In this document: one piece after another, positions 36,695 to 51,542 of the stretch
How the letters are laid out: every line of letters starts with the position of its first letter
Numbering within the stretch: the stretch's first letter is position 1
Source of the DNA: Deltaproteobacteria bacterium
Lineage (GTDB): Bacteria; Desulfobacterota; Deferrimicrobia; Deferrimicrobiales; Deferrimicrobiaceae
Direction of reading: 5' to 3'
DNA: 64,000 bases
NCBI GenBank assembly: GCA_021824125.1
Contig: JAKALO010000001.1
Coordinates: 9,722 to 73,721, forward strand
Notes under the pieces: generated by a model
The model's input: the letters and a program-made list of their open reading frames with translations, nothing else
Databases searched by the model: none
What the model was told of the DNA's origin: nothing
Made by a program: the position numbers and the translations under genes

Positions 36695-37651
36695 ATGATG
36701 GTTATGGATTTCGAAGAAGCCAGATCGGCGGTCCGCCTGTTTCGCGCGGGGGTGGAATCGGTTCTCCTTGGGAAACGCGATGCGGTCGACCTCGCGATCT
36801 CGTCCTTCCTCGCCGGCGGGCACATCCTGCTGGAGGACGTCCCGGGAACGGGGAAGACCACGCTGGCGCGGGCCATGGCCGCGGGAATCTCGGGGAAGTT
36901 CCGCCGCGTGCAGTTCACGAGCGACCTGCTTCCCCAGGATGTCCTGGGCGTTCACATCTTCGATCCCGAGAAACGCGGCTTCACCTTCTCGCCCGGCCCA
37001 CTGTTCGCGAACATCGTTCTCGCGGACGAGATAAACCGTAGCAATCCGAGGGCGCAGAGCGCCCTGCTCGAGGCGATGAGCGAGCGGCAGGTTACTATCG
37101 ACAACCGGACCTATCCCCTGCCCGACCCTTTCCTGGTCATAGCCACGCAGAACCCCTTCGACCAGCACGGGACCTATCCCCTCCCCGAGTCCCAGCTCGA
37201 CCGTTTCAATCTCCGCCTGCGGCTATCCTACCCGGACCGGGATTCGGAACTGCACCTGATCCGGGAAAGCAACCTCTTCACCAGCCGGGACGGGATCCCG
37301 GCCGTCCTCCACCCCGGGCAGGTGACCGAGTGCCGCGCCCTGCTCGACCGGGTCACGGTCCGCGAACCGGTCCTCTCCTACGTTTACCGGATCGTCGAGG
37401 CGACGCGGGTGCACCACGCGGTCCGCCTCGGGGCATCCCCCCGCGGGGCCATCGGGCTGAAGACCACCTCGCAGGCCTTCGCGTTCCTTTCGGGCCGGGA
37501 TCACGTCGTTCCCGGAGACGTAAAACGGGTGGCGCCCGCCGTCCTGTGCCACCGCATCTTCCTGAAAGGGTCCCCGGAGGCGGATACCGCCACCGACTCG
37601 GCCGCGGCGGTCCTGTCCGAGATCCTCGAGGCGATCCCCGCGCCGGCATGA
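36695..37651 (+). CDS. MoxR-family AAA+ ATPase
   Basis: Start at the ATG cluster 36695 (MMVMDFEEA...). Walker A GTGKTT. The long upstream frame from 36083 is rejected. Confidence 0.9.
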   Translation: MMVMDFEEARSAVRLFRAGVESVLLGKRDAVDLAISSFLAGGHILLEDVPGTGKTTLARAMAAGISGKFRRVQFTSDLLPQDVLGVHIFDPEKRGFTFSPGPLFANIVLADEINRSNPRAQSALLEAMSERQVTIDNRTYPLPDPFLVIATQNPFDQHGTYPLPESQLDRFNLRLRLSYPDRDSELHLIRESNLFTSRDGIPAVLHPGQVTECRALLDRVTVREPVLSYVYRIVEATRVHHAVRLGASPRGAIGLKTTSQAFAFLSGRDHVVPGDVKRVAPAVLCHRIFLKGSPEADTATDSAAAVLSEILEAIPAPA

Positions 37652-38610
37652 AGCCGTCTCTCTCCGGCCTCCGGCGGAGATTCAGACTTCCGCGCAGGCT
37701 CCGGGTCACGTTCGAGGGGAAGGGATTCATCCTCCTCACCCTCGGTGTGGGGGTCGCCGCGGTAAACACCGGCAACAACCTTCTCTACATCGCCCTCAGC
37801 ATGAACCTGAGCCTCATCGTCATCTCCGGGATTCTCTCCGAGTGGTGTATCCGCGGGGTCGCCGTCCTTGTGCGCCATGCCTCGGAGGCGTTCGTGTCCC
37901 GCGAGAGCCTGTTGGCCATCACCTGTACGGCAATGGGCAAACGCTTCCCCCCGACTGCGCTCTCCGTATCCCTGACACTGGATGGATCGCAACTAACGGC
38001 ACGGTTCCCGGAAATCCCAGCCGGCGGCGAATCCACCCGCATACTCTCCGTCCGACCCGCGCGCCGGGGAACGCTGTCCCACGGCTCCTGCTCCATCTCC
38101 ACGCTGTTTCCCTTCGCGCTCTTCGAAAAATCGATGGACGTCCTGCCTCGGGCTTCCCTCGTTGTCTACCCCGAACCGGCGGAAGCCGGCTCGCCGCCAC
38201 CGGGCGAGAGCACCCCCGAGCCCGCGGGGAACGACGGGATTCCGGGCAGGGAGGGATCCGGGATCCGTGGAGCGAGGGAGCACGCCGCCGCGGACCCTGT
38301 CCGGGACATCCACTGGAAGGCGTCCGCACGGATGGGGAGATGGATGGTCAAGGAGCGGGAACGGGAATCGGCCCCCGTGGCGGACCTGCGGCTTCCCGTC
38401 ACTTGTCCCCCGATCGAGTTCGAGCGGCTTGTTTCCCGGGCGTGCGCTTTCGTCCTCCGCTGCGAACGGGAGGGGCGGCCGTATCGTTTGTGGCTCGGCG
38501 ACAGCCTCCGCGTGGACGCGTCCAGGGGGGGGCTAAGGGCGCAGGCGCTGGCCTTCCTTGCGTTCGTCGGCGCGAACGGCGCCCCGCCGGGAGACGGAGC
38601 CGCATCATGA
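37648..38610 (+). CDS. DUF58 domain protein (MoxR-associated)
   Basis: ATGA overlap with the moxR stop. Two TM helices followed by a DUF58-like region. Confidence 0.75.
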   Translation: MKPSLSGLRRRFRLPRRLRVTFEGKGFILLTLGVGVAAVNTGNNLLYIALSMNLSLIVISGILSEWCIRGVAVLVRHASEAFVSRESLLAITCTAMGKRFPPTALSVSLTLDGSQLTARFPEIPAGGESTRILSVRPARRGTLSHGSCSISTLFPFALFEKSMDVLPRASLVVYPEPAEAGSPPPGESTPEPAGNDGIPGREGSGIRGAREHAAADPVRDIHWKASARMGRWMVKERERESAPVADLRLPVTCPPIEFERLVSRACAFVLRCEREGRPYRLWLGDSLRVDASRGGLRAQALAFLAFVGANGAPPGDGAAS

Positions 38611-40686
38611 GATGCGCCCCGGCCTCCTCCCGGTCCCGCACGGGTTTCCTATGGTGGGTCCTGCGCGCCCAGTGGGCGTGGGGGCTCCTGTCGCTGACCC
38701 TGCTGACGGAAGTGTCGCGGCCGGCGGCGCTTTCCGCGGCGGCGGCCTTCCTCGCGGGAACCGTCCTGGACCGTTCGGCCCGGAAAAGGGACGGGTGGCG
38801 CCGCATGGGCGCCCCGCTCGCCCTGCTCGCGTTCGGCGCGGCGGCGGCCGACCTCTTCCTCGGAAGCGGGGACCTGCTCTTTTCCGCTTCCGTCCTCGTC
38901 CTCGGGATTCAGTCGATCAAGTTCATACTGCCTAAAGATTCCCGCGACGGCTGGCAGCTGTCCGCCGTCTCCTTCCTCGAGTTCGTGGCTGCCTCGGCGG
39001 CGACGGCGGAAATACAGTTCGCGGCGTTCGCCTTCCCGTTCCTCGGCCTGTGCGCCGGCGCGATGTGGGCCCTTCAAATCGAGCGAAGGGGGGAGGAGGG
39101 CGACGAGACGGCTCGCCTCGCCCGGCCCCGCTTCGCGGCGAGACTTCTCCTTCTCTCCGCGGCGGCAGGAATCCTTATGACCGTGATTCTATTCGCGGTC
39201 ACCCCCCGGATCGGGATCGGGCAGATACTGCGACGGCTCGGGCGCGCGGAAGGACTCTCCGGCTTCTCCGACACGATCTCCCTGCGGGAGGTCACGGGGG
39301 TAAAGGCGGACCGTCGTGTCGTGGCGAGGGTGGAATTCCCGGAGCTTCCCCCGGGCGTCTCTCCCGCCGGTCTCTACCTGCGCGGCGCCACCTACTCCCT
39401 GTTCACGGGAACCGCATGGATCCGCCCCGAGAGGTACCGGTTCCGGGTCCCGAGGAGCGGGTTCCACTACTTCGTCGCCTCGCCGCCCGCCGGGACACGC
39501 CTGGCGACGGCGGAGATCTCGCTGGAGGCGATGGACAACCCCGCCCTTTTCGTCTACGGGGAACCCTGTCTCTTCGAGGGAAGCCTGGGGGAGGTCTGGA
39601 CTGAGGGACGAGGAAGTTTCTCCCTCGGGTTTCCGGGCCATCCCGCGCTGCGCTACCGGCTGCAGTTCTCGCCGGACGCAAGGCGCCGCGCCTTGCCGGG
39701 GCCGCCGGACGCCGTCGACTACTTGCGGCTGCCTCCCCGGGCACGACGACATCCGGGAGCTCGCCGTCAGGGTCACCGCGGGAGGGAAGACCGACGCCGA
39801 ACGCGCCGAACTCGCGTTGCGGCACTTCGGCGCCGGGTTCCGGTACACGGTCGTCGACCCCGCTTCATCCATCCGCGAATTCCTCTTCGACAGTAGGGCG
39901 GGTTTCTGCGAACACTATGCCTCCGCCCTGGCCCTGCTCCTTCGTGCGGCGGGGATCCCTTCGCGGGTCGCCGCCGGATACCTCGGGGGGGAATGGAGCG
40001 ATGTCGGGAAATACCTGATCGTCCGGCAGTCCGACGCGCACGCGTGGACCGAGGGCTGGATCGGGGGAAGGTGGGTCACGCTTGACGCGACCCCCTATCT
40101 CGGGGAGCGATCCCCCTTCTACTCGCGAACCGGAACGATCGGGATCTACATCGACTGGGCGCGACAGCGGTGGAACAAGTACGTGGTCAACTACTCACTG
40201 AAGATGCAGGCGGAAGGGGTGGCGGGCGGATGGGCGGCTATCGGCCGGGCAAGGGCCGAGATCGGGAACGCGTTCGCGGCGGGAAAGGACTTCCGCCTGC
40301 GGGCGGGCAGGCTCGCGGCGCTTCTGCTCGCGCTGGCGGCCTGCATGGTTCTACTCTTTAAATTCCTGGGCGGCGCCGGGCGCGAAGGGGAATCGGCGGC
40401 CGGCGGGAAAAGCGCGGTCCTTCCCCCGCGACCCTACGCCAGGCTGATTCGCCGCCTTGCGGCGGCCGGGTACCGCGGGTCGCCCGGGGCAACCGTGGAG
40501 GAGATGGTTACCGGAGCCGTGAAGGGACGTCCCGCGCTGGCCCGGGACGCACTCCGGTTCCTTGCCCTCTATCACCGGGAGCGCTTCGCCGCCCGTCCGC
40601 TCTTACCCGGCGAATTCAGGGAGTCCGCGCGGCTCGCGGACCGCATCGGCAGGGAAATCCGCCGGCCCGTGGCGGGGGCAAGGTAA
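38606..40686 (+). CDS. Transglutaminase-domain membrane protein (TgpA-like), apparently frameshifted near 39735
   Basis: ATGA overlap with the DUF58 stop. The N-terminal polytopic membrane region continues in frame A to about 39740. The TGc core (GFCEHYASALALLLRAAGIPSRVAAGY...DAHAWTE) is in frame B from about 39745 to 40686. The switch point is a CCCCGGG run. Confidence 0.65.
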
Positions 40687-41207: not shown

Positions 41208-42680
41208 ATGCACGTCCGCTTCGTCTATCCCGTCGCCCTTTCCTGCCTCATCCTCCTGTGCGCCCCGCAAGTCGCGGCGCCGGCGGAAAGGGCGGCGATC
41301 TACCCCGGAACGCCGGGGCCGGAAATCGATTCCCATATTCTATTCGAGACCGTCTTCCCGCTCAATGAACTCCTTCCGTCGCGCTGGACCGCCGCGCAGC
41401 GGAAAGAAGTCGCCTACATCCTGGAGCGCATGAAAAAGGACAACCGGATCTTCATCCTCCTGCAGGTCGCGATCGACCCGATCGGCAGGAAGGAGGACAA
41501 CGAGCGGATGGGCATGGAGATATCCCAGGCCATCGCCGATCGGCTGCGGGAGTCCGGCATCCGGCGGGACCGGATCCTGGTCGTGCCGGCCGCGGTGGAC
41601 GTGAGACTCTTCGACGAACCGCGGTGGGGCGGCTTCGCCGGGCGGCAGAAGGCGGTCATCCGCGGACTTCGGGGGGGACCGTGGCTCCAGGTCCGTGAAA
41701 CCCCGGTGACCTTCCGCGAGGAGCTTCCCCCGGAGGGCGTTATCCGCATCATCGACCCGGTCGAGGAGAAAACCGACCACGCCCGCCACGTCCTGAGGGG
41801 AACCGCTGCCGAGGGGGTGCGCACGGTGTCCATCTCCGTCGGCCAGGAAACGAAGACCGCGACGGTCTACCAGGACGGATTCGAGGCGCCCGTGTCCCTG
41901 CAGGCCGGCGTGAACCACATCGTGGTCACCGGACTCGACCCGTACGGCCGCGCCTTGCGGGCATCCCGGGAGATACTGTACACGCCCCCCAAACCCTCCA
42001 TCGTGCTGACCTCCCCGCCCGCGGGCTCCGTGGTCGACATCACGCGCTCCCCGGTCGTCGCGGTGCGCGGGAAAATAAGGAGCCGGAACCCCCTTGCGAC
42101 CGCGTACCTGATCCAGAACGACATCCCGCTCCGCCTCCGCATCGGGGAGGACGGATCCTTCGAGCAACCCGCGGCTCTCATCACGGACGAGGACGTCTTC
42201 ACGGTCGAGGCACAGGACCTGGAAGGGCGCACCGGGGTCAGCGAGCAGCGGAAGGTCGGCGCGCGTGGGATCGCCGAGCGGCCGCTCATGGCGATTCTTT
42301 ACTGGGACGAGGACGACATAGATATCGACCTCCACATCGTCGACGCGAAGGAGTTCCACACCTATTTCGACGCGCCCGACATCTACGAAAGCGCCACCGC
42401 CATCCAGGAAGGAAAGCTTCTCCTGGACAACCGCAAGGGGTTCGGGCCCGAGGTCTTCACGATAGACAGGAACGTACCCGGGGTCTTCACCTTCTCGGCT
42501 GAATATTACCGCGGGAAAAAGGCGTGCCGCGTCTACCTGACCGTCGTGCTGTTCGCCGGCTCGCCCTCCCGCAAGATCGTACGCGTCTTCGGCCCCATCG
42601 TGCTTTCCCCGGCGAAGCGGACCGCACGGCTGGTACAGGTGTCGCTTCCGGGGGGAAACATAGTGGAGTTGCCACACTAA
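41208..42680 (+). CDS. Secreted protein with a C-terminal YfaP/DUF2135-like domain
   Basis: 490 aa with a signal peptide. The C-terminal ~120 aa resemble DUF2135 as I recall it; this is unverified. GAAGGAG SD. Confidence 0.5.
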   Translation: MHVRFVYPVALSCLILLCAPQVAAPAERAAIYPGTPGPEIDSHILFETVFPLNELLPSRWTAAQRKEVAYILERMKKDNRIFILLQVAIDPIGRKEDNERMGMEISQAIADRLRESGIRRDRILVVPAAVDVRLFDEPRWGGFAGRQKAVIRGLRGGPWLQVRETPVTFREELPPEGVIRIIDPVEEKTDHARHVLRGTAAEGVRTVSISVGQETKTATVYQDGFEAPVSLQAGVNHIVVTGLDPYGRALRASREILYTPPKPSIVLTSPPAGSVVDITRSPVVAVRGKIRSRNPLATAYLIQNDIPLRLRIGEDGSFEQPAALITDEDVFTVEAQDLEGRTGVSEQRKVGARGIAERPLMAILYWDEDDIDIDLHIVDAKEFHTYFDAPDIYESATAIQEGKLLLDNRKGFGPEVFTIDRNVPGVFTFSAEYYRGKKACRVYLTVVLFAGSPSRKIVRVFGPIVLSPAKRTARLVQVSLPGGNIVELPH

Positions 42681-42698
42681 CCGGTTCGAGGAGAAACC

Positions 42699-43211
42699 AT
42701 GAGGCGATCCGCCGCAACCATCGTGCTCTTCATCTGCCTGTTCCTCCCCTCCGCGATCATGGCGGCGGAGGAATCCCTTGAAGCGGTCGAAACCGACCTC
42801 GCCGCCGTCCTGAAGGAGATGGACGCGATGTCGTCCGAGCTCGACCGCATCGAGGAATTCACCGCCGCGCCCAAGGCCACGGCGCTACGCATCGAGATCC
42901 TGAAGGTCGGAGACCTTCCCGGACCGGTGTCCGGAAGGCTCCACCTGGGGGGAAGCGTGGAGCATGAAAAGGAGTGGTCGAGGTCGGAGCGGGATCTGTT
43001 CGCCGGCGGCGCCCCGCTCGTCCTGCAGGTCCCTGTTCTCCCCGGGGCATACGCCGGCCGCATCGAGGTCGCCCACCCCGCGTGGAAGACCACTCCCGCG
43101 GCCGATTTCCAGGCGAACGCGCGGAAAGGGGAGACGGTCGTTCTCAAGCTCCTTCTTGCCGCTCCGCCGGGGAAAGCCGATCCCGTCCTGTCGCAGGCGG
43201 CGGGGAAGTAA
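42699..43211 (+). CDS. Secreted hypothetical protein
   Basis: 170 aa with a signal peptide. No recognisable domain. Confidence 0.5.
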   Translation: MRRSAATIVLFICLFLPSAIMAAEESLEAVETDLAAVLKEMDAMSSELDRIEEFTAAPKATALRIEILKVGDLPGPVSGRLHLGGSVEHEKEWSRSERDLFAGGAPLVLQVPVLPGAYAGRIEVAHPAWKTTPAADFQANARKGETVVLKLLLAAPPGKADPVLSQAAGK

Positions 43212-43214
43212 ATC

Positions 43215-46200
43215 TTGAAGGCCGCCTGGCTGCGCACGATCACCGGGGCTCTGCTTGTCGCATCCCTGCTCCCGTGCGCGGGGGCGGCGGGCGGGGATTC
43301 GCCGGGGAGATTGCGGGCTGATTCACCCGAGGCGTTACTCGAACGCGGAATGCCGCTTCCCGCAAGCCGCGAGTTCCTCGTCCTCCCCCCCCCGTCGCGC
43401 GCGAAGTCCCCCCTCCTCCCGGAACTCATGCGACGCCTGTCCAGAGCCGGTTACGACAACGTCGCCCTTTCCCTGTTCGAGGAGACCGGCCCTCATCTTG
43501 CCGAACCTGTCCGTTCGGAGGCGTGCCTCGAAGCAGGCAGAATCCTCTGGCAACTCAAGGAATACGGGAAAGCGTCCGATGCGTTCCGAAAGGTATCCCG
43601 GAAGTCCGGGGCCGCACCCCTGGCCGCCTTCTACCAGGCGAGGCTCCTCGCCGCGGCGGGGAAAGCTCCCGCGGCGCTGCAGGCGCTGTCCGCCGCGCCG
43701 CAGGGCGGCAAAAGAAGCCTGCTCGAGGGCGAGATCGAGATGGCCAGGCAGAACCCCGGCGCTGCCCTGGCGGCCTGGGCCGGCGCGCCGTCCGGAACGG
43801 ACGCGGGATTCCTGGCGAGGCTCCTTTCGCTGTCCCGCGTGGAAAGCGGGGAAGGGATTCGGGAGCTCAAGGCCATCGCAGACAACGCGTCGACGGGGTC
43901 GTTCCCCCGGCAGGCGGCCGCCCGGAAGGCCCTCGCGTCCGCTCTCCTGGGAAGGAAGGATTACGACGGCATGTTGTCCACCGCGCTGAAAGCGCTCGAA
44001 ACCGCCGGGCGCTGGAAGACCGCCGCCGGAAAACCGCTCCAATGGGACGGGACGAGGGAAGGCGCGGCGCGATCGTGGAGATATCTTGCCTCCCTCTTTC
44101 CGTACGACGAGGATGCGCAGAAATTCCTGGCCGTCGGACACCGCTTCTTCGCCGCGACCGCCCTGTACGAAGGGTTGCAAGCCACGGAGGCGGACAGCCG
44201 GGATTTCACCCGCCGCCTGGCAGCCGCGATCGAAAGGGTCTCCCTCGAAGAGAAGGCCGTCGCCGTAAAGCGTTCGCGCGCGGAGGAAATCCGGAAGGAA
44301 ATGCTCGCACGTCGGCGTAAAGCGGTGGAGATGCGGGACCGGCTCCGGAACGCGGCCGGGTCCCTGGGGGTCGAAGCCTGGGGAAGCAGGACCGACCCTC
44401 GAAGAGCCGCCCTTATAGGAGAAACGGGCAGGAAGCTCGCGGCCTTCCGGGACCGCCTGGCCCGCGTTCGCGGGGCCGCGGCGGCGGCGACGGCGAGGGC
44501 TCGCGCGGAGTCCCTTCCGCCGGAAGACCTGAGGATGCTCTTCTACTCACAGGAGCAGGTCGCGAAGCTGGGGGACAGGCTTGACGCTCTCGAGGGGAAA
44601 ACCGCGTTCCTGCGCGTGATCATATGGAACCGCTGGAAATCGGAGTACGTGACACGTCTGTCCGTCCTTCTCGGCAAGGCGGAAGAAACCGCCAGGGCCC
44701 TCGGCGAGGCGGCCGACAGGGCGGGCAAGGCCGTTCCCCCGCTCCACGCGGAGCAGGACAACCTTCTGGCCTGGAAGAAATCGCTGGACCTGTTCCGGAA
44801 AAAGATCGTTTCCGGCGACGCGATCCTTGAAAGAGGGAAGGCGGCGGCGAAGGCCCGGGCGTTGGGCTCCCTTGCGGAGTCCGGACGGGAACTCCTCTAC
44901 GGGATATCCCGGGAAGAGCGCGGGATAAGGTATTTTGCCGCCCGGGCGTCCACCGAATGGCGGATCGAGGATTCGGAAAGGCAGCCTGGCGCCAAAGCGC
45001 TTCCCCCCCCGCGGCGCGCGGAACTGGGAAAGGAGGCGATCCGGCACTGGGAGGCGATCCTCCCTCCCCCGGGAGACCGCGACGATCCCGCCGACGAGAT
45101 CCTGTACGCGTTGGCGGAGCTGAGATTCGAGCAGGAGGAAGCCAGGTTTTTACAAAAGGAGGAAGCAGGCAGTCAGCCCCCCGATTACTCGGCACCCCGG
45201 GCCTTGTTCCGCAGGGTGATCGAAGAGTTCCCGGGAAGCCCCTACACCGAGCATGCGCTATACGGGCTCGCGCTTTCCTGGCAGGAGGAGGGCGCCGTGG
45301 ACAACGCCACCGCCGCCATGAAGGGACTTCTCGCCAGGTTCCCCGGAACCCGCTACGCCGACGAGATCCATCTTCGCCTCGGCGAGTACGCGTTCGACGA
45401 ATACGAGTTCGGGAGGGCCGAGGAGTTCTACCGGAAGGTATCCCGGGAAGCACCCCCCGAGATCCGCGTAACCGCCCTCTTCAAGCTCGGGTGGTCGCTG
45501 TTCCTCCAGGGAAGGCCCGGGGAAGCGGTGGACCCCTTCCTCGCAGGCCTCCTGCTTTCCCCCGCCGCACGGAAAACGGGGGGTGTTCCCCGGGAAGCGC
45601 TCGCCATGCTGGCCCGCTCCCTTGTCGAAGCCGGCATGGAGAAGGAAACGGAAACGCTCCTTGCGCGGCGGGACGCCTCCGGGCATGGACCGGCCGTGCT
45701 CATTGAGATCCAGCGCATCCTTGACGGCCAGAACCGGTACGACGAGGCGACGGCGTTCGCCGACCGGCTCGGAAGCGCGTACCCCTACGCGGCGGAGCGA
45801 CTGGACGCCGAACTCGTCGCGGCGGAAGCGCTCCGGAAAACGGGGAAGGACGACGAGAGCCACGCGCGGCGGGGAAATTTCCACAAGGTCTTCGGGCCCC
45901 GAAGCGCATGGCAGAAATCTTCCGCGAGGAGTCCCGTGGAATCGGCGCGGGCCAACACGGTTTCCGAGGAGGGACTGCGAAGCTCCGCCTTTTACTTCCA
46001 TGCCCGCTCGCGGCAGTCCCCGCCGGGGGACCGTGGGACGATCCTTGGTCTTTATGATGCCCACCTTTCGCTTTTCCCCTCCTCCCCCATGACCGGGGAA
46101 ATCGCTTACCAGCGGGCATGGCTGCTTTTCGAGGACGGGAAAAAAGGCGAGGCGAAAACGGCCTTCGAAGCCGTTGCGCTTCTGCCGGGGGGAACCCGGG

Positions 46201-47642
46201 GTGAGGCCTCCTGGTACATGGCCGTCCAGTGCGCCAAGGACGTTTCCTCGATTACGGACGCCGCTTCGCAGGGCGAGGTGGTCCGCCTCAGTCGTGAGTA
46301 CGAGCGGTTCTTCCCCGGCGGGGAGCGCCTCTATTCTTCCCTCATGGACCGCGCGCGGGCGCACATGAACCTGCGCCGGTTCGACGAGGCGGCAAGGGCG
46401 TCGGAACGCTCCGCCACCCTTGCCAAGTCACCCCCCGAGCTCCGCGCGGCGCTCCGTCTGGCGGGAGACGCCCGGTTCGAGAGGGAGGAGTACGGGGAGT
46501 CGGAAAAGGCCTTCCGCGCTCTGCTCGCGGCGGACCCGCCGCCGGAAGAGGCAAAGGAGGCGGAGAAATGGGTCGGTTTTTCGATGTTCCGCCGGGCGGA
46601 AAAAATGCCCGCGGAAAAGGCGGGCGACGCGGCGGCGCTTTTCGCACGCGTGGACGAGGAATTCCCCTCCCTGGAGATCGCGCCGACCGCCCGCTTCCGC
46701 GCGGGAACGTCGTACGCATCGGCGGGCAGGCCCGCGGAGGCGATCGCGGCGTTCCTTTCCCTGGAGTCTCCGCGCGACGACTCCCCCCTTTCCCTGGATT
46801 CGACCAGGTGGCTGGCGCGGATATACGAAAAATCCGGCGATAACGTCGCATCCGCGGTTCGTTACGAGCGCCTCGCCGCCGTCGAACGGAACCCCGAGGA
46901 AAGGATAAAGATTCTCCTGAAAACCGCCGATCTGTTCTCCATGGGAAAGGACGAGCCGCGAGCGAGGAAAAACCTCCTGGCAGTCGCGTCCATGCCGGGC
47001 GCCCCACCCGACCTGCGGGTCCGGACCCTGTTTCGGGCCGGGGAGAGCGCCTTGATGGAAGGGAAGCCCGAGGAGGCGGAACGGCATTACAGGGAAACGG
47101 TCGCGGCGCACCGCGCCGCCCCGGAAACCTCGCCGGAGGTTGCCGGGAAAGCGCTCTTCCGGATGGCCGAGTCCCGTTTCGCGAGTTACCAGGCACTCAA
47201 GATCGCCCCGCCGCTCGAAAAAACATTCGTGGCCAAGCAGAACTCCCTGGAGGAATGCGCGAAACTATACCTCGAAGCGATCTCCCTGGGCGATGCCGTG
47301 ACGGTGTCGTCGTCGCTTCACCGTCTCGGTGAGGCGTTCGAGGACTTCCGGTCCGCAATCCTCGCCTCCCCTCCCCCGAAAAGGATGTCCGACCGGGAGC
47401 GCGAGGAGTACGTTTTCCTCCTTGAAGAAAAGGCGGCCCCCCTCGAGGAAAAGGCGGTGGAGGCCTACCAGAGGAACCTCCGGCAGGCGGTCGCGGCGGA
47501 TACCCGGTCCGACTGGGTGGAAAAGAGCCTCCGGAGACTGAAAACCCTTCGTCCCGCCCGTTTCGGGAAGAAAGGTGAATATTCCTTTCCCGTGGTGACC
47601 GTCCCCGACTTCCGGGGGATGATCGAGAGGAGCACCCGGTGA
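43215..47642 (+). CDS. Giant secreted TPR-repeat protein (GltD/AgmU/NfsD-like)
   Basis: 1475 aa, TTG start, signal peptide, TPR-like helical repeats and coiled-coil stretches. GTGA overlap with the next gene. Confidence 0.7.
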   Translation: MKAAWLRTITGALLVASLLPCAGAAGGDSPGRLRADSPEALLERGMPLPASREFLVLPPPSRAKSPLLPELMRRLSRAGYDNVALSLFEETGPHLAEPVRSEACLEAGRILWQLKEYGKASDAFRKVSRKSGAAPLAAFYQARLLAAAGKAPAALQALSAAPQGGKRSLLEGEIEMARQNPGAALAAWAGAPSGTDAGFLARLLSLSRVESGEGIRELKAIADNASTGSFPRQAAARKALASALLGRKDYDGMLSTALKALETAGRWKTAAGKPLQWDGTREGAARSWRYLASLFPYDEDAQKFLAVGHRFFAATALYEGLQATEADSRDFTRRLAAAIERVSLEEKAVAVKRSRAEEIRKEMLARRRKAVEMRDRLRNAAGSLGVEAWGSRTDPRRAALIGETGRKLAAFRDRLARVRGAAAAATARARAESLPPEDLRMLFYSQEQVAKLGDRLDALEGKTAFLRVIIWNRWKSEYVTRLSVLLGKAEETARALGEAADRAGKAVPPLHAEQDNLLAWKKSLDLFRKKIVSGDAILERGKAAAKARALGSLAESGRELLYGISREERGIRYFAARASTEWRIEDSERQPGAKALPPPRRAELGKEAIRHWEAILPPPGDRDDPADEILYALAELRFEQEEARFLQKEEAGSQPPDYSAPRALFRRVIEEFPGSPYTEHALYGLALSWQEEGAVDNATAAMKGLLARFPGTRYADEIHLRLGEYAFDEYEFGRAEEFYRKVSREAPPEIRVTALFKLGWSLFLQGRPGEAVDPFLAGLLLSPAARKTGGVPREALAMLARSLVEAGMEKETETLLARRDASGHGPAVLIEIQRILDGQNRYDEATAFADRLGSAYPYAAERLDAELVAAEALRKTGKDDESHARRGNFHKVFGPRSAWQKSSARSPVESARANTVSEEGLRSSAFYFHARSRQSPPGDRGTILGLYDAHLSLFPSSPMTGEIAYQRAWLLFEDGKKGEAKTAFEAVALLPGGTRGEASWYMAVQCAKDVSSITDAASQGEVVRLSREYERFFPGGERLYSSLMDRARAHMNLRRFDEAARASERSATLAKSPPELRAALRLAGDARFEREEYGESEKAFRALLAADPPPEEAKEAEKWVGFSMFRRAEKMPAEKAGDAAALFARVDEEFPSLEIAPTARFRAGTSYASAGRPAEAIAAFLSLESPRDDSPLSLDSTRWLARIYEKSGDNVASAVRYERLAAVERNPEERIKILLKTADLFSMGKDEPRARKNLLAVASMPGAPPDLRVRTLFRAGESALMEGKPEEAERHYRETVAAHRAAPETSPEVAGKALFRMAESRFASYQALKIAPPLEKTFVAKQNSLEECAKLYLEAISLGDAVTVSSSLHRLGEAFEDFRSAILASPPPKRMSDREREEYVFLLEEKAAPLEEKAVEAYQRNLRQAVAADTRSDWVEKSLRRLKTLRPARFGKKGEYSFPVVTVPDFRGMIERSTR

Positions 47643-48823
47643 GAGAGAGCGCCGCCCTTCTTGGAGCAATCGTGGCCGCCCTTGCGCTTTCCTCGTGCGC
47701 AACGCAGAAGATCGTTCTGGCGCCGACCCCGTCGGTGGAGGCCCGGAAGGAGCCTTCCTTGCCTTCCGCCCGCGTGGACGCCGTCAAGGCAACCCCGGTT
47801 CCCGTGCCGACCCCCTCCAAACCGGCGCCGGATTATTCCCGGATGTATTCGGAAGCAATCTCCCGCACAAAGGAGGCTTTCCAGCGAGGCTCGGTGAAGG
47901 AGGCGATCCCCCTCTGGAAAGCGCTTGAGGAGAGTCCCTGGCATGGTGAAGCCGTTTTCCATCAAGGGATTATCCTTCACCTCGCCGGGGACCTCGAGGG
48001 AGCGGCCGCCGCCTATCGCCGTGTCGGGGATCTTCCCCCCGTCTACGAGCCCGCCGCCGCCAACCTCCTGGGGATCTACCTCCTTCGCGGGAACCTCCGC
48101 GAGGCCCGCATCCTGGTGGACCGGTTATTGCCGCCGGGATCCGAGCCGGCCCCCGGCATGCTCCCCGAGCTGCAGTCCAACATCGGGGCGGCGCTGGTGG
48201 AATTCCGCGATCCCGACAGGGCGGCGCGCATTTTCCTCGCGATGCAAGCCAAGGGAATCGCCCCTCCCTCGGTCTCCTGGAACATGGCGGTCCTTGCATA
48301 CCGGAACGGAGACGTGGTGACCGCCCGCCGGATGGCGTCTATGGTCCCGTCCGAGGTCGGAAGTCTTTGGCCCGTCATCGCGTCGCGTTTCGCCTGGGAG
48401 AGGGAGTCCGGCAAGGTCCCGCCGCCGGGCGACGTGCCCGCCGCGGAGCGGAGGATCTCCGCGCTCGCCTGGAACCTCGCGGCTTTCGATGAATACAGGA
48501 AAGGGAACCTCCAGGGAGCGGAGGGCATCCTCGCGCGGAACAAGGAGAATAATGCCCATGTCAGTGAAATAGTCAGCAATCTCGGGCTGATGCAACTGGA
48601 ACAGGGGAAGTGGAAGGAAGCGCGGGAAAACCTGGAGAAAGCGGTGGGGGACGACCCGGGACTGCCGGAGGGATGGCTCAACCTCGGCGTCTACCGGGAG
48701 GTATACGAGGGCAATCCGTCGGAAGCGCTGAAGTGTTTCAATCGTTATGTTATGCTTAACGGTTCGAGGAAGGACGAGGTCAGGCAGTGGATCGAGTGGC
48801 TCCAAAAACCCTCGCCGCGGTAG
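47639..48823 (+). CDS. TPR-repeat lipoprotein (GltE/AglT/NfsE-like)
   Basis: 394 aa with lipobox LALSSC followed by TPR units. Confidence 0.7.
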   Translation: MRESAALLGAIVAALALSSCATQKIVLAPTPSVEARKEPSLPSARVDAVKATPVPVPTPSKPAPDYSRMYSEAISRTKEAFQRGSVKEAIPLWKALEESPWHGEAVFHQGIILHLAGDLEGAAAAYRRVGDLPPVYEPAAANLLGIYLLRGNLREARILVDRLLPPGSEPAPGMLPELQSNIGAALVEFRDPDRAARIFLAMQAKGIAPPSVSWNMAVLAYRNGDVVTARRMASMVPSEVGSLWPVIASRFAWERESGKVPPPGDVPAAERRISALAWNLAAFDEYRKGNLQGAEGILARNKENNAHVSEIVSNLGLMQLEQGKWKEARENLEKAVGDDPGLPEGWLNLGVYREVYEGNPSEALKCFNRYVMLNGSRKDEVRQWIEWLQKPSPR

Positions 48824-49083
48824 CGGTAATCCTTCTGCTCGCGGTTTCTCCCGCGCCCGGGGAAACGGGGAAGGATAGGTCGCCGGCCAAGGGGGCGGGA
48901 AAGACGGACGGTAAAGCGGTCCATCGCCTGGACGAGGTCCGGATCCTGGGCAGCGTCGAACATCCAGGCATCCTCTTCTTCCTTCCCCGCGCGAAATTCC
49001 GGCTCCTTCCGGTCCGGGAGGAGCATGGCCCGAGGGAACGCATCCTCCGGACCGACCGGGGAAACGAGGAGATTCCGGAATGA
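48787..49083 (+). CDS. Small secreted/membrane protein (GltF/NfsF-position ORF)
   Basis: 98-aa ORF with a GTG start. Overlaps the preceding gene by 37 nt and the next by ATGA. Confidence 0.4.
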   Translation: MDRVAPKTLAAVAVILLLAVSPAPGETGKDRSPAKGAGKTDGKAVHRLDEVRILGSVEHPGILFFLPRAKFRLLPVREEHGPRERILRTDRGNEEIPE

Positions 49084-50003
49084 ACGGGGAGCTCCGTCTC
49101 GAAGGGCTGGCGATACCCCCGTGTTCCGTTCAGCAGCGGTTCCTCCGCTTCGCGCTCCTGATGTCGATCACCCTTCACGCAGCCGGCATTCTCACCTCCC
49201 CCTACTGGAACACGCGTCCGGCGGCGCGGGAGGAACTCATGATGGTCGACATCGCGGACATTCCGGCCGCGGAAATGCCGAAGATCCCCGAGATCCCGTT
49301 CACGGCGCCTCCGCCGCCCTCGCCGGCGGAAGCCCATCCCGCGCCGAAAGAGGCTGGCCCCCTCCCCGCGCAGCCGCCTCCGCCACCGACGCGCGAGATG
49401 ATACGGGAAAAGATCGCCACGCGCGGGCTCCTTAAGGTGCTATCCCCGGGAAAAGCCGGAGAGGCGGTCGCCGGCGCCGACCCGTTCGCAGGCATAAAGA
49501 TCCCGAGGGAAATCCGCGTCGCATCGAGGGAACCCGCCACGTCGAACGCATACGAGGTTTCCCGGCAGGATGCGGAGCCGCCCAGGGAAAAAGCCCACGG
49601 CATAGGCAACCAGGTGGCGTCGTCGACGCGGGCGGGCCGTGCCCTCTCCTCCCGGGTGTTCCGGACCGACGCGGGCCTGGAGGGCGAGATCAGCGGCGGG
49701 ATCGAGGACGAAAACCGCGACTCCGGGGTGATCGCGTCAACCGTAAGCCAGTACCGCAGCGGGATCAAATACGCCTACAACAAGGAACTCCTGAAAAACC
49801 CCTCCTTGAGCGGAAAGATCGTCGTGGCTTTCGTCATCCTGCCGAACGGTTCGGTGCAATCCGCGGAGATCCGCCAAAGCAGCGTAAACTGGCCTCCCCT
49901 CGAAGACGCCGTGCTGAAAAGGCTCCAGCACTGGAAATTCCCGAAATCGAAAGGGACCCCGGTGCGGGTCGTGTTTCCCTTCGTGTTCCATCCAGAGATG
50001 TGA
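49080..50003 (+). CDS. TonB C-terminal-domain protein (GltG/PglI/NfsG-like)
   Basis: 307 aa with an N-terminal TM helix, a Pro-rich spacer and a C-terminal TonB-C-like domain. Confidence 0.7.
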   Translation: MNGELRLEGLAIPPCSVQQRFLRFALLMSITLHAAGILTSPYWNTRPAAREELMMVDIADIPAAEMPKIPEIPFTAPPPPSPAEAHPAPKEAGPLPAQPPPPPTREMIREKIATRGLLKVLSPGKAGEAVAGADPFAGIKIPREIRVASREPATSNAYEVSRQDAEPPREKAHGIGNQVASSTRAGRALSSRVFRTDAGLEGEISGGIEDENRDSGVIASTVSQYRSGIKYAYNKELLKNPSLSGKIVVAFVILPNGSVQSAEIRQSSVNWPPLEDAVLKRLQHWKFPKSKGTPVRVVFPFVFHPEM

Positions 50004-51184
50004 CCGCCAGCGTGGAAAAGATCCGGGTCTACACCTGGTTTCCTGCCCTGGTCGTCCTTGCGGCCTTGTGTGCCGCGGACTTCCCCGCCCACGCCGCCGA
50101 TAAGCAGCGACCCGGCCGGAGCCGGAAGTCCCGGAAGGCCCCGCCAAGACCCGCGGTCGGGGGGGTGGCGGACTATTTCTTCGAGGACGCACCTCTCCCC
50201 GACTCCGTGACAGGGGTTCCGCCGGTCGAGGCGTCCGTGAGCGACGTGGATCAAGCACGCCCGTCCCCGGGCGGGCCGGTTCCGCCCCCTGCCTGCGACC
50301 GTACGCCGAATCCGTGCGAGCGCCTCTCGTGGGTCGAGCAGGTGATGTCGATCCGCGACCGGAAGGCGATCCCGCACCTCCGGGCGATGGCCGTCGACGA
50401 CGCCCACGAGCGCGTCCGTGAAAGGAGTCTGGGCGCCCTGGTGATCCTCGGGGACACCGGTGCGGCGCCTCTCTTCCTCGGCCGCCTCTCGGGCGACCCT
50501 TCCCCGGCGGTCAGGCGGGCCGCGGCCGAGGGGATCGGCCTGCTGAGGATACCCGTCCCCCCGGACAGCCTGGCGGAGCCGCTGATCAAGGATTCGAATC
50601 CGCTTGTCCGCGCCGAATGCGCCCGCGCGATCGGCCGGTCGGCCTTCGTCCAGGCGGGACCGGCACTCATGGTCGCCATCCTGAAGGACCCCTCCCCGGA
50701 AGTCCGGGCCCTCTCCGCAGAGGCGCTCGCCGGCATGAAGACCCCGTGGGGGACTGAAGCGCTGAAGCAGGCGGCGCGGGACGAGGACCCGATCGTACGC
50801 CTCTACGTCCTCCGGGGGCTCGTGGAATTCTCCCCGACCGCCGCCGGACCGCTGTTCAAGGAAGTGTGGGACACCACGAGCGACCCCGAGCTGCGCATCG
50901 AGGCCTTTCGCGGGCTCCTTCGCTCCGGGGAGGGGAAGAAGTGGAGCGAGTCCGGTCTCTCCGACAGCGATGCGCGGATCCGCTTCCTAGCCCTGCGGGA
51001 GTGGCTTTCAAACCTTAACTTCGATCCCCGGAATCCCTACACCCGCAACAACAACTTCCTCCCGCGGATCGAGCCGTTTCTCGCGGACTCCTCGCGGGGG
51101 ATCCGCGAACTCGCGAAGGGGTATCTCGAGAACCTGGGGTTCACGGTCCGCCAGTCCGGGTTCGTCTACATCCTCCAGAAGTAA
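50000..51184 (+). CDS. Secreted HEAT-repeat protein
   Basis: 394 aa, GTG start overlapping the upstream stop, signal peptide, multiple PBS-lyase HEAT-like repeats. Confidence 0.65.
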   Translation: MTASVEKIRVYTWFPALVVLAALCAADFPAHAADKQRPGRSRKSRKAPPRPAVGGVADYFFEDAPLPDSVTGVPPVEASVSDVDQARPSPGGPVPPPACDRTPNPCERLSWVEQVMSIRDRKAIPHLRAMAVDDAHERVRERSLGALVILGDTGAAPLFLGRLSGDPSPAVRRAAAEGIGLLRIPVPPDSLAEPLIKDSNPLVRAECARAIGRSAFVQAGPALMVAILKDPSPEVRALSAEALAGMKTPWGTEALKQAARDEDPIVRLYVLRGLVEFSPTAAGPLFKEVWDTTSDPELRIEAFRGLLRSGEGKKWSESGLSDSDARIRFLALREWLSNLNFDPRNPYTRNNNFLPRIEPFLADSSRGIRELAKGYLENLGFTVRQSGFVYILQK

Positions 51185-51223
51185 ACAAGTGCCACCCGTT
51201 ATTGGACCGGATATCGGTCCCAA

Positions 51224-51401
51224 GCCCGCATTTCTCACCGGACTCCGTAGCGAGGCGGTGGAGACGGGCGTGGATACAAGGCGCACGAACTTCGGGCGAC
51301 GCAGGCGTAGTTGAAACTACGTCGAGGAGAACGAAGGAGTGCAACGCAGTAGACATGCCCGTATCCGCCGCCGCAGCAGGAGGCTGGTGAGAAATGCGGG
51401 C
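51224..51401. ncRNA. Candidate structured small RNA (6S-like size) or MITE-like element closed by an 18-bp stem
   Basis: GCCCGCATTTCTCACCGG (51224-51241) pairs with CTGGTGAGAAATGCGGGC (51384-51401): 17 Watson-Crick pairs plus one G.U. The enclosed 142 nt contain internal hairpins. Lies between the HEAT-protein stop and comM. Confidence 0.25.
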
Positions 51402-51542
51402 TAGGTATCCGTCCAGGTTTGAGCGGCATACGGGAGCGCCCTGCCGGACCTTATCCGGATGGTCCCGGCGCACGGTACGCTCCTTGCTGCCCTTTCCCCT
51501 GCGACCAGGCCGTTTCCGGCCAATCTTTCGCGGAAGGGCCCC

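What the first reader, a model, noticed from the sequence alone, without database searches (positions are those of the whole stretch)
41208..51184. Seven-gene operon of secreted TPR, TonB-C and HEAT proteins resembling a Glt/Nfs G1-type envelope-spanning module
Seven plus-strand genes are translationally coupled by GTGA/ATGA overlaps. In order they are: a secreted DUF2135-like protein, a small secreted protein, a 1475-aa secreted TPR giant, a 394-aa TPR lipoprotein, a 98-aa overlapped ORF, a TM + Pro-rich + TonB-C protein, and a secreted HEAT protein. The order and domain types of genes three to six mirror GltD(AgmU)-GltE(AglT)-GltF-GltG(PglI) and NfsD-E-F-G of Myxococcus. In Myxococcus those proteins work with a TolQR-like motor (AglRQS) to move an envelope complex. 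No ExbB/ExbD or TolQ/TolR gene lies in the window, so the energising motor would have to be encoded elsewhere. Such modules are little studied outside Myxococcales, and the flanking DUF2135-like, 170-aa and HEAT proteins are not part of the described Glt set.
Basis: partly seen in the sequence, partly recalled or inferred. Interest (0 to 1): 0.7.

Follow-up and report, generated by a model that had tools for sequence, protein, structure and literature searches.

The report
Motor-less Glt-type envelope operon
This seven-gene operon of an uncultured Deferrimicrobiota bacterium encodes a periplasmic protein complex related to the core of the Myxococcus gliding and spore-coat machines, but it lacks its own proton motor genes and carries three extra proteins, so it is a new variant of a known system whose job is still unknown.

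Summary
Seven plus-strand genes sit at the stated coordinates, and all seven are kept in the same order in 15 species-level relatives (Candidatus Deferrimicrobiaceae-type MAGs).

- Residues 653-1468 of the 1475-aa TPR protein align end to end with the GltD-position protein of a true Glt/Nfs cluster (hhalign 99.6%; unrelated TPR controls at most 3%).
- The 307-aa protein carries the curated AgmX/PglI (GltG/GltJ) C-terminal domain (87.5 bits, cutoff 40), which has a TonB-CTD fold.
- The lipoprotein is weakly GltE-like.
- The 98-aa ORF is a real conserved gene. It sits where Geobacter-type "core complexes" carry a small extra gene.
- A sister cluster (L025) has exbB-exbD-exbD between the small gene and the transducer gene, followed by the same HEAT gene.

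The window and 10 kb beyond each end hold no motor gene. All 90 full-length family members carry a TonB/TolA-type SxxxH motif in the membrane helix, which suggests a motor acting in trans.

The OmpA-like/Ig/DUF2135-like protein, the 170-aa protein and the HEAT protein have no Glt counterpart. No outer-membrane Glt parts are present, so gliding is unlikely. I rate it a new variant of a known kind, of moderate interest.

The parts
41208..42680 (+). g1, a 490-aa secreted accessory protein. It has an OmpA_C-like alpha/beta domain (residues ~44-161), two Ig-like (Glucodextran_B-type) domains (180-258 and 264-353) and a DUF2135-like beta-sandwich (358-486). It has no Glt counterpart.
   Evidence: Pfam Glucodextran_B matches all 8 family members. 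The AF2 model has pLDDT 88.8 and shows four domains. The family profile hits an OmpA-like PDB chain, 9v99, at E 0.0013. The full-length homologue P0158 passes Pfam OmpA, and the ~240-aa homologues P0211 and P0214 pass Pfam DUF2135. hhalign against GltA, GltB, GltC and GltH gives probability below 2%.
42699..43211 (+). g2, a 170-aa secreted protein of unknown fold. The N-terminal part looks helical by eye. It is specific to this lineage.
   Evidence: It has no Pfam or NCBIfam hit. It is conserved, with a signal peptide, in all 8 loci that reach this far upstream. It has no counterpart in the Glt-type clusters.
43215..47642 (+). g3, a 1475-aa periplasmic TPR protein with a TTG start and a type-I signal peptide. 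Residues 1-~640 are a lineage-specific extension. Residues ~650-1468 are the GltD-like body.
   Evidence: TPR and YbgF-like hits. The N-terminal signal peptides in the family have no conserved Cys. The N-terminal 640 residues have no detectable homologue among Glt proteins.
45171..47618 (+). The GltD-like region of g3 (residues 653-1468).
   Evidence: hhalign of the g3 family gives 99.6% (810 columns) against the L032 GltD-position protein, 99.9% against the L031 1641-aa protein and 100% against L008 TPR952. Controls score 1-3%. tblastn of L008 TPR952 gives 29% identity over 868 aa, E 7e-63.
47639..48823 (+). g4, a 394-aa TPR lipoprotein (lipobox LSSC, Cys20). It is GltE-like in position and weakly in sequence.
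   Evidence: The lipobox is conserved in homologues. hhalign against L032 GltE gives 96.6%, E 5e-10, with controls at most 7%. NCBIfam GltE scores only 27.2 bits against a cutoff of 225.
48787..49083 (+). g5, a 98-aa small secreted protein with a near-invariant motif, RLxEVxIxGSxEHPxVLFFLPRAKFRLLP. It occupies the slot of GltF, which is also the slot of the 'additional gene' of Geobacter-type core complexes.
   Evidence: It is present in all 16 loci. It matches the L025 79-aa ORF at 96.4% and the L031 100-aa ORF at 82%, but L032 GltF at only 15.9%. G55, P60 and R68 are invariant when GltF is included. It does not hit the CglF model. The position of the unlisted Geobacter gene (Gura_3074 / GM21_0441) comes.
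49080..50003 (+). g6, a 307-aa TonB/TolA-type force transducer. It has a membrane helix (residues 17-43) with S29-x3-H33, a Pro-rich linker with a conserved helix at 105-114, and an AgmX/PglI-type TonB-CTD (190-303).
   Evidence: NF033768 scores 87.5 bits (cutoff 40) and Pfam TonB_C 32.2 bits. An AF2 model is available. Foldseek top hits are TonB C-terminal domains 6sly, 5lw8 and 7zc8. S29 and H33 are at least 90% conserved in 86 sequences, and SxxxH occurs in 90 of 94.
50000..51184 (+). g7, a 394-aa secreted HEAT-repeat protein. It is an accessory part that is also kept in the motor-containing sister cluster.
   Evidence: HEAT_2 scores 145.6 bits. Homologues have signal peptides. L025 has a homologue directly after its g6-like gene (35% identity; hmmsearch E 1.7e-67). 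P0169 is a fusion of the g1-like module with HEAT repeats.

Best explanation
The operon encodes the periplasmic part of a Tol/Ton-like force-transduction machine. It belongs to the Glt 'core complex' lineage. That lineage gave rise to the Myxococcus gliding (Agl-Glt) and spore-coat (Agl-Nfs) machines.

Proposed working, with each step marked as shown or inferred:
1. g6 is anchored in the inner membrane by a TonB/TolA-like helix that carries Ser29-x3-His33. It reaches across the periplasm through a Pro-rich linker and ends in an AgmX/PglI-type TonB-CTD. This architecture is shown.
2. The g6 linker and CTD dock on the GltD-like TPR body of g3. The lipoprotein g4 (GltE-like) binds g3. The small protein g5 adds a beta-strand to the g6 CTD, as GltF does to GltG in the published AlphaFold model of the Myxococcus complex. 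This is inferred by homology and position.
3. Energy comes from a TolQ/ExbB-ExbD-type proton motor. In this lineage the motor genes have been lost from the cluster, so a motor encoded elsewhere must serve it. The conserved SxxxH motif suggests a canonical ExbBD or TolQR motor. This is inferred.
4. g1 (OmpA-like, Ig, DUF2135-like), g2 and the HEAT protein g7 are lineage-specific partners. g1 and g7 probably act together. The output is probably a cell-envelope task such as tethering or moving something at the wall or outer membrane, not gliding. This is inferred and the task is unknown.
For: Homology:
- g3 residues 653-1468 match GltD-position proteins colinearly and specifically.
- The comparison cluster L032 is validated by NCBIfam hits to GltC, GltE, CglF, GltG and CglE.
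- g6 matches the AgmX/PglI domain above its curated cutoff, and its CTD has a TonB-CTD fold.
- g4 is GltE-like above the TPR background.

Link to a motor:
- L025 has g3-like, g4-like, g5-like, ExbB, ExbD, ExbD, g6-like (43% identity) and a g7-like HEAT gene, in that order. Its second ExbD carries the membrane-embedded Asp.
- More distant relatives also carry ExbB-ExbD(-ExbD) in the cluster: L007, L008, L028, L031 and L034.
- Geobacter core complexes have the same order.

Precedent for a motor in trans: the Myxococcus Glt G1 and Nfs clusters lack motor genes and use AglRQS encoded elsewhere. AglR binds both GltG and NfsG (PMC3169522; PMC3858216).

Motor docking:
- SxxxH is present in 90 of 94 family members. 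The exceptions are three N-terminally truncated fragments and the motor-linked P0115.
- The motif is absent from GltG-type proteins that sit next to dedicated motors.
- The SHLS motif is the motor-binding element of TonB and TolA, and it allows use of a heterologous motor (PMC12204202).

Docking model: in the published AlphaFold model, the GltG linker lies in a GltD crevice, the GltG CTD sits on GltD, GltE binds the GltD C-terminus, and a GltF strand pairs with the GltG CTD (PMC11761067).

All seven genes are co-conserved in 15 species. A g1-HEAT fusion exists.
Against: - No motor gene lies within about 84 kb, and I could not search the rest of the genome.
- g6 lacks the FHA domains of GltG and matches the GltG model only over its last 93 residues.
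- g4 and g5 fail the curated GltE and CglF models.
- GltC and all outer-membrane Glt parts (GltA, B, H, K) are absent, so the outer-membrane contact point is unknown.
- M. xanthus GltD itself could not be obtained. The GltD comparison rests on proxy clusters.
- The SxxxH contrast between the motor-less and motor-linked lineages rests on a single motor-linked sister sequence.
- No protein-protein contact was computed here.
Confidence: 0.6

Rival explanations
1. The complex is a passive scaffold with no motor. After the exbB-exbD-exbD genes were lost, it became a static periplasmic tether linking inner membrane, peptidoglycan and outer membrane. g6 serves as the membrane anchor, g1 as the OmpA-like wall contact and g4 as the outer-membrane lipoprotein. 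No proton motive force is involved.
For: No motor gene lies in or near the cluster in any of the 15 species. g6 has lost the N-terminal cytoplasmic extension seen in the motor-linked sister P0115. g1 has an OmpA_C-like domain and g4 has a lipobox.
Against: A polar Ser-x3-His pair inside a membrane helix is kept in every full-length member (90 of 94). That is hard to explain for a plain anchor, and it is the known motor-docking motif of TonB and TolA. Glt G1 and Nfs show that motor genes need not be linked to the cluster. In the profile alignment, the position of the OmpA-type peptidoglycan-binding Arg is not conserved in g1.
Confidence: 0.2
2. The operon is part of the neighbouring MoxR-DUF58-TgpA (transglutaminase) system, in the manner of the Bat aerotolerance operons that combine MoxR, DUF58 and TPR proteins. 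On this view the TPR and HEAT proteins are substrates or partners of that AAA+/transglutaminase module.
For: MoxR, DUF58 and TgpA lie upstream in the window and in most relatives. In L018 and L020 TgpA is directly upstream and co-directional with g1. g3 gives a very weak hit to a Leptospira BatC TPR model (E 0.015).
Against: In the window a divergent moaC gene separates the two sets. In L016 the MoxR-TgpA set is absent at this position while g1-g7 are intact. Gene order is conserved on both sides across the whole family (comM, rplU, obg and so on), so adjacency carries little weight. The motor-linked and Glt-type relatives show no MoxR or TgpA genes in the flanks available.
Confidence: 0.07
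3. g6 is an ordinary TonB that energises TonB-dependent outer-membrane receptors for nutrient uptake. Its neighbours are functionally unrelated periplasmic proteins.
For: g6 hits Pfam TonB_C and TIGR01352. It has a Pro-rich linker, an SxxxH motif and a TonB-CTD fold.
Against: Its best family is AgmX/PglI at 87.5 bits, against 32-35 bits for generic TonB_C. It is always in the same tightly packed operon with GltD-like and GltE-like proteins. The window contains no ExbB/ExbD gene. The sister cluster places a dedicated motor between the TPR genes and the transducer gene.
Confidence: 0.05
4. It is a true gliding-motility or spore-coat machine of the Myxococcus type.
For: The gene order and homology match GltD, GltE and GltG.
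Against: No homologues of GltA, B, C, H or K are present, and no FHA domain. g5 fails the GltF/CglF model. Luciano et al. argue that the core complex alone does not drive motility. A described member of the phylum is predicted to have only twitching motility (PMC9386147).
Confidence: 0.03

Closest known systems
Glt 'core complex' of Geobacter, Gammaproteobacteria and Fibrobacter (Luciano et al. 2011, PMC3169522)
   Same: The gene order is the same: GltD-like giant TPR, GltE-like TPR, a small extra gene, then a GltG-like TonB-CTD transducer. The GltD-like body and the AgmX/PglI CTD are homologous. The function is unknown and is not gliding. The sister cluster L025 and the clusters L007, L008 and L028 show the full core layout with ExbB-ExbD-ExbD.
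   Different: The motor trio is missing from the cluster, and there is no separate GltC homologue. g3 carries an extra 640-residue N-terminal extension. Three added genes are present: an OmpA-like/Ig/DUF2135-like protein, a 170-aa protein and a HEAT protein. The transducer has a short cytoplasmic end and an SxxxH motif. The host phylum, Ca. Deferrimicrobiota, is different.
Myxococcus xanthus Agl-Glt G1 cluster (GltD-E-F-G-H) and Agl-Nfs (NfsD-H)
   Same: The order is giant TPR, TPR lipoprotein, small secreted protein of about 90 aa, then a transducer with an AgmX/PglI CTD. The sizes are close: 1191, 471, 89 and 640 aa in M. xanthus against 1475, 394, 98 and 307 aa here. The motor is encoded elsewhere in the genome.
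   Different: There is no GltH/CglE, no GltA/B/C/K and no FHA domains in the transducer. g4 and g5 fail the GltE and CglF equivalog models. There are extra g1, g2 and g7 genes. Nothing suggests motility or sporulation.
Tol-Pal system (TolQ-TolR-TolA-TolB-Pal-CpoB)
   Same: There is an inner-membrane transducer with SxxxH, a periplasm-spanning linker and a TonB/TolA-type CTD. g3 contains a CpoB/YbgF-like TPR (72 bits). g1 contains an OmpA-like domain, as Pal does.
   Different: There is no TolB and no TolQR in the cluster. The YbgF hit is below its cutoff of 90 bits. g1 is not a lipoprotein, and the peptidoglycan-binding Arg position is not conserved in it. The TPR protein is about five times larger than CpoB.
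TPR / tolQ-like / two tolR-like / non-canonical transducer clusters of the PVC group (PMC12204202)
   Same: The layout is a TPR gene followed by a 5:2-type motor with two different TolR-like subunits and a membrane-tethered transducer whose helix carries the SHLS motif. Their function is also unknown.
   Different: Those transducers end in a vWA domain, not a TonB-CTD. Here the motor genes are absent from the cluster.

Membership tests
Myxococcus-type Glt/Nfs G1 module | A GltD/NfsD-type giant periplasmic TPR protein | tested here: met
   The g3 family (residues 653-1468) against the GltD-position protein of L032 gives hhalign 99.6%, E 3e-24, with 810 colinear columns. Four TPR controls score 1-3%. 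L032 is validated by NCBIfam. M. xanthus GltD itself was not available, and NCBIfam has no GltD model.
Myxococcus-type Glt/Nfs G1 module | GltE (NCBIfam NF033758 equivalog, cutoff 225 bits) | tested here: not met
   g4 scores 27.2 bits over 89 residues, no better than its hits to Tgl, PilW or PrsT. Remote similarity to L032 GltE is 96.6%, E 5e-10.
Myxococcus-type Glt/Nfs G1 module | GltF/CglF (NCBIfam NF033764, cutoff 90 bits) | tested here: not met
   Neither g5 nor any close family member hits the model, even at E up to 10. Only a shared motif is seen, with G, P and R invariant in the MAFFT alignment. hhalign against L032 GltF gives 15.9%.
Myxococcus-type Glt/Nfs G1 module | GltG (NF033760, cutoff 650 bits) with cytoplasmic FHA domains | tested here: not met
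   g6 scores 73.9 bits, over the last 93 residues only. Only about 16-20 residues precede the membrane helix, and there is no FHA domain.
Myxococcus-type Glt/Nfs G1 module | AgmX/PglI C-terminal domain (NF033768, cutoff 40 bits) | tested here: met
   g6 residues 214-303 score 87.5 bits. The NCBI name of the identical protein is 'AgmX/PglI C-terminal domain-containing protein'.
Myxococcus-type Glt/Nfs G1 module | Outer-membrane and connector parts (GltA/B, GltH/CglE, GltC) | tested here: not met
   tblastn of L032 GltA, B, C and H against the window gives no hit at E up to 0.1. hhalign of g1, g2 and g7 against these proteins gives below 2%. The rest of the genome was not searchable.
Glt 'core complex' (Luciano 2011) | gltD, gltE and gltG homologues in one cluster in that order, with a small extra gene after gltE | tested here: met
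   The order g3-g4-g5-g6 matches Gura_3076-3075-[3074]-...-3070 and GM21_0439-0440-[0441]-...-0445, and also L008 and L025.
Glt 'core complex' (Luciano 2011) | aglR-aglQ-aglS (ExbB-ExbD-ExbD) inside the cluster | tested here: not met
   None is present in the window, within 10 kb beyond it, or in any of the 15 related species loci. The trio is present in the sister cluster L025.
Glt 'core complex' (Luciano 2011) | A gltC homologue | tested here: not met
   No hit to L032 GltC. The g3 N-terminal 640 residues against GltC-type proteins give probability of at most 12.6%.
TonB/TolA periplasmic force transducers | An N-terminal membrane helix with the Ser-x3-His motor-docking motif | tested here: met
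   S29 and H33 are present and at least 90% conserved in 86 sequences. SxxxH is found in 90 of 94. The full SHLS spacing (Leu and Ser further down the helix) does not match exactly, by inspection of the sequence.
TonB/TolA periplasmic force transducers | A Pro-rich or disordered linker followed by a TonB/TolA-type C-terminal domain | tested here: met
   Pfam TonB_C scores 32.2 bits (cutoff 24.6) and TIGR01352 35.5 bits (cutoff 27.1). The AF2 CTD has pLDDT above 90, and the Foldseek top hits are TonB C-terminal domains.
TonB/TolA periplasmic force transducers | A cognate ExbBD or TolQR motor in the genome | not testable with these tools
   Only the window plus 10 kb on each side could be read, and no motor lies there.
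Tol-Pal | TolB, the Pal lipoprotein and CpoB (TIGR02795, cutoff 90.1 bits) | tested here: not met
   The CpoB-type hit in g3 scores 72.4 bits, below the cutoff. No TolB-type hit was found. g1 is OmpA-like but has a type-I signal peptide and the Arg position is not conserved.

The most novel reading that the evidence does not exclude
A Glt-core-derived periplasmic machine, specific to the phylum Ca. Deferrimicrobiota, has shed its dedicated AglRQS-type motor. It has re-wired its transducer onto the cell's canonical TonB/TolA-type motor through an SxxxH helix motif. It has also recruited a new set of partners: an OmpA-like/Ig/DUF2135-like protein, a small protein, a periplasmic HEAT protein, and a 640-residue extension of the GltD-like protein that may be a fused GltC equivalent. 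If so, it is a distinct envelope system with its own function, still unknown and unrelated to gliding.
Probability: 0.3. Interest if true: 0.65.

Novelty: new variant of a known kind. Interest (0 to 1): 0.5.

Why it matters
The role of the Glt 'core complex' outside the myxobacteria has been open since 2011. This cluster shows three things. The core reaches a further phylum. It can persist without its own motor genes. It can take on new periplasmic partners, including a DUF2135-type module and a periplasmic HEAT-repeat protein, neither of which has a known function.

The contrast between the motor-less lineage (SxxxH always present) and the motor-linked relatives (absent) gives a concrete, testable idea of how such machines switch power sources. 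The organisms are uncultured, so direct tests need heterologous systems. That limits the immediate pay-off.

Tried and rejected
- Direct comparison with M. xanthus GltD, E, F and G sequences was not possible. No tool returns them, and NCBIfam has no GltD model. I used a validated Glt/Nfs-type metagenomic cluster, L032, as a proxy.
- A word-indexed search with a g3 profile returned no named GltD.
The scan with the g6 family worked.
- The two Polyangiaceae loci it returned (L026, L027) carry only the C-terminal domain in other contexts and were not used.
- A metagenome scan with the motor-linked P0115 found no further members of the L025 type, only more distant Glt-like clusters. So the 5' end of that sister cluster remains unknown.
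- Direct Pfam detection of DUF2135 and OmpA in g1 failed. Only transitive evidence was obtained.
- The Foldseek search of the g1 model was dominated by generic tandem Ig hits. The AFDB library was not available.
- The idea that the g3 N-terminal 640 residues are a fused GltC got no support (probability at most 12.6%).
- The promoter and terminator scan gave nothing above chance.
- comM downstream was rejected as part of the system. It follows g7 in the family, but a TrxB-like gene follows g7 in L025.

Full report
**Observation.**
All show the high third-position GC of real genes in this 65% GC genome. The packing is tight. g3/g4, g5/g6 and g6/g7 overlap by 4 nt (GTGA, ATGA, GTGA). g4/g5 overlap by 37 nt. 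The gaps g1-g2 and g2-g3 are 18 and 3 nt. Pfam and NCBIfam confirm TPR repeats in g3 and g4, TonB_C in g6 and HEAT repeats in g7. Signal peptides (g1, g2, g3, g5, g7) and a lipobox (g4) were read by eye from the N-terminal sequences, and they recur in the homologues. The flanks are a divergent moaC gene upstream and comM/yifB downstream. MoxR, DUF58 and a TgpA-like transglutaminase gene lie further upstream.

**Source and conservation.**
Identical proteins occur on MAG contigs labelled 'Deltaproteobacteria bacterium'. Close relatives are labelled Candidatus Deferrimicrobiaceae, a family of the phylum Ca. Deferrimicrobiota, formerly MBNT15. So the lineage is not Desulfuromonadota.

A scan of one genome per species returned 16 loci of the g6 family. 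In the 15 motor-less ones the cluster keeps the order g1-g7 as far as each contig reaches, followed by comM. None has an ExbB or ExbD gene. The sixteenth is the motor-linked L025, described below. The 98-aa ORF g5 is present in every locus. It has a signal peptide, a variable spacer and a near-invariant motif, RLxEVxIxGSxEHPxVLFFLPRAKFRLLP. It is therefore a gene and not an artefact of overlap.

**Relation to Glt.**
NCBIfam places g6 in the AgmX/PglI C-terminal domain family (87.5 bits, cutoff 40). That is well above its scores on generic TonB_C models (32-35 bits). The GltG model matches only over its last 93 residues. NCBIfam has no GltD model, and M. xanthus sequences could not be fetched.

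I therefore used a metagenomic cluster, L032, as a stand-in. Its eight genes hit OMP_myx_plus (twice), GltC (196 bits), GltE (73), CglF, which is GltF (67), GltG (230) and CglE, which is GltH (132, above its cutoff). A 1030-aa TPR protein sits in the GltD slot.

Profile comparisons run locally gave the following:
- The g3 family, residues 653-1468, aligns with that GltD-slot protein over residues 113-1030 of 1030. Probability is 99.6%, E 3e-24, with 810 colinear columns.
- g3 also aligns with the equivalent proteins of L031 (99.9%), L008 (100%) and L007 (99.0%).
- GltC, GltE and two unrelated TPR proteins scored 1-3%.
- g4 aligns with GltE at 96.6% (E 5e-10), against at most 7% for controls. 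It scores only 27 bits on the curated GltE model.
- g5 matches the small ORFs in the same slot in L025 (96.4%) and L031 (82%), but not L032 GltF (15.9%).
- g1, g2 and g7 have no Glt counterpart.

g5 fails the CglF model. MAFFT nevertheless lines up the GltF segment VTVEGELTKPEGSYVLNRNRTRF with g5's VRILGSVEHPGILFFLPRAKFRL, with G, P and R invariant. The first 640 residues of g3 match nothing among the Glt proteins.

**The motor.**
Relatives outside the family carry a TolQ/ExbB gene and one or two ExbD genes inside the cluster. These are L007 and L034 (Chitinivibrionales type), L008 (Nitrospiria), L028 (Fibrobacterota) and L031.

The key case is L025. Its order is g3-like (36% identity), g4-like lipoprotein, a 79-aa g5-like ORF, ExbB, ExbD, ExbD, g6-like (43% identity, with a longer cytoplasmic end), and a g7-like HEAT protein (35% identity). 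Its second ExbD carries the membrane Asp typical of working stators.

This is the order Luciano et al. listed for Geobacter: GltC, GltD, GltE, an unlisted gene, AglR, AglQ, AglS, GltG. The window operon is this core layout with the motor trio removed, and g5 sits in the slot of the unlisted 'additional gene'. Because all outgroups have the motor in the cluster, its absence here is most simply a loss from the cluster.

The window, plus 10 kb beyond each end, holds no ExbB or ExbD gene. The rest of the genome could not be searched.

**The transducer.**
The AF2 model of g6 (86-sequence alignment) shows four parts:
- a confident membrane helix (residues 17-43);
- a disordered Pro-rich stretch;
- a short conserved helix (105-114);
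- a C-terminal domain (190-303, pLDDT above 90).

The best PDB matches of that domain are TonB C-terminal domains 6sly, 5lw8 and 7zc8.

Ser29 and His33 in the helix are at least 90% conserved. SxxxH occurs in 90 of 94 family members. The exceptions are three truncated fragments and the motor-linked P0115. The motif is missing from GltG-type proteins that sit beside dedicated motors, namely L032, L007 and P0117. In TonB and TolA this motif binds the motor and permits use of the other system's motor (PMC12204202).

This supports, but does not prove, the idea that g6 draws on a canonical ExbBD or TolQR motor encoded elsewhere. Myxococcus gives a precedent for unlinked motors: AglRQS serves both Glt and Nfs, and AglR binds GltG and NfsG.

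**Accessory proteins.**
A full-library search with g1 found 477 relatives.
- A full-length homologue (P0158) passes Pfam OmpA.
- Proteins of about 240 aa that match g1's C-terminal half pass Pfam DUF2135.
- The g1 family profile weakly hits an OmpA-like PDB chain (E 0.0013). In that alignment the usual peptidoglycan-binding Arg position is not conserved.
- The AF2 model (pLDDT 88.8) shows an alpha/beta domain, two Ig-like domains and a terminal beta-sandwich. Foldseek gave only generic tandem-Ig matches.
- The g1-type module occurs fused to g7-like HEAT repeats in P0169.
- It also occurs at the end of ~1000-aa proteins; in the one whose sequence was read (P0161) there are N-terminal TPRs, an SxxxH helix and a long disordered linker.

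The fusion links g1 with g7 and with transducer-like settings. g2 remains without any match.

**Mechanism.**
The steps shown are the domain architectures, the homologies, the gene order and its conservation, and the motor linkage in relatives. The steps inferred by analogy with the AlphaFold model of the Myxococcus complex (PMC11761067) are these:
- the g6 linker and CTD dock on the GltD-like body of g3;
- g4 binds g3;
- g5 adds a strand to the g6 CTD.

Also inferred is that a motor in trans drives the assembly. The output is unknown. Gliding is unlikely, because GltA, B, C, H and K and the FHA domains are absent, and the core complex alone is not thought to drive motility.

**Rivals.**
- A passive, motor-free tether fits the missing motor, the OmpA-like domain and the lipoprotein. 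It does not explain the conserved SxxxH motif.
- A functional tie to MoxR-DUF58-TgpA fits the frequent adjacency. It is weakened by the intervening divergent moaC gene, by L016 (where that set is missing), and by the generally conserved gene order on both sides.
- An ordinary TonB is contradicted by the domain family and the fixed operon context.

**Verdict.**
The closest known system is the Glt core complex, already described in 2011. This is a new variant of it: no motor genes in the cluster, an extended GltD-like protein, three added proteins, and a TonB/TolA-type docking motif. Interest is moderate.

Noticed in passing
window 51223-51412 (between g7 and comM): A near-perfect hairpin of about 190 nt lies here. 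RNA MFE is -154 kcal/mol for the 276-nt intergenic stretch, z = -11 against shuffles. It is single-copy in the window and is found only in same-species contigs (L001-L004). There is no significant Rfam match. It could be a strong terminator or insulator, or the remnant of a palindromic element.
   Followed up: partly
window ~37842-40686 (TgpA-like transglutaminase gene): The gene is split into two reading frames near position 39700 in the window and in contigs L001 and L002. It is one continuous ORF in L003 and L004 of the same species. This is either a frameshift variant or an assembly error.
   Followed up: partly
window 36749-40686; L018 and L020 upstream of g1; L016: MoxR, DUF58 and TgpA precede the operon in most relatives. 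In L018 and L020 they lie directly upstream and co-directional, with no moaC between. In L016 a RadC-like gene and RNase J take their place.
   Followed up: partly
P0169, P0161, P0163, P0165 and similar (hits of g1): The g1-type module (two Ig domains plus a DUF2135-like sandwich) occurs fused to HEAT repeats in P0169. It also forms the C-terminal end of ~1000-aa proteins. P0161 and P0165 have N-terminal TPRs, and in P0161, the one read in full, there are also a membrane helix with SxxxH and a long disordered linker. That is a TonB/TolA-like layout with a different head domain.
   Followed up: partly
P0138 and P0141 (weak hits of the g3 profile): These proteins of about 2500 aa combine YbgF-type TPRs with alpha-2-macroglobulin domains. 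DUF2135 (YfaP) genes are neighbours of alpha-2-macroglobulin genes in E. coli (from memory), so the pairing may not be a coincidence.
   Followed up: no
window 4144-5799 (- strand): This is a second large HEAT-repeat protein (551 aa) elsewhere in the window, next to hisG and a type II/IV secretion ATPase gene (686-2251, - strand).
   Followed up: no
L012 and L015 record titles: Two MAGs that carry the complete cluster are labelled Actinomycetota and Gemmatimonadota in their records. Their genes are 50-65% identical to the Deferrimicrobiaceae-type clusters and fully syntenic, so the labels are probably binning or naming errors.
   Followed up: no
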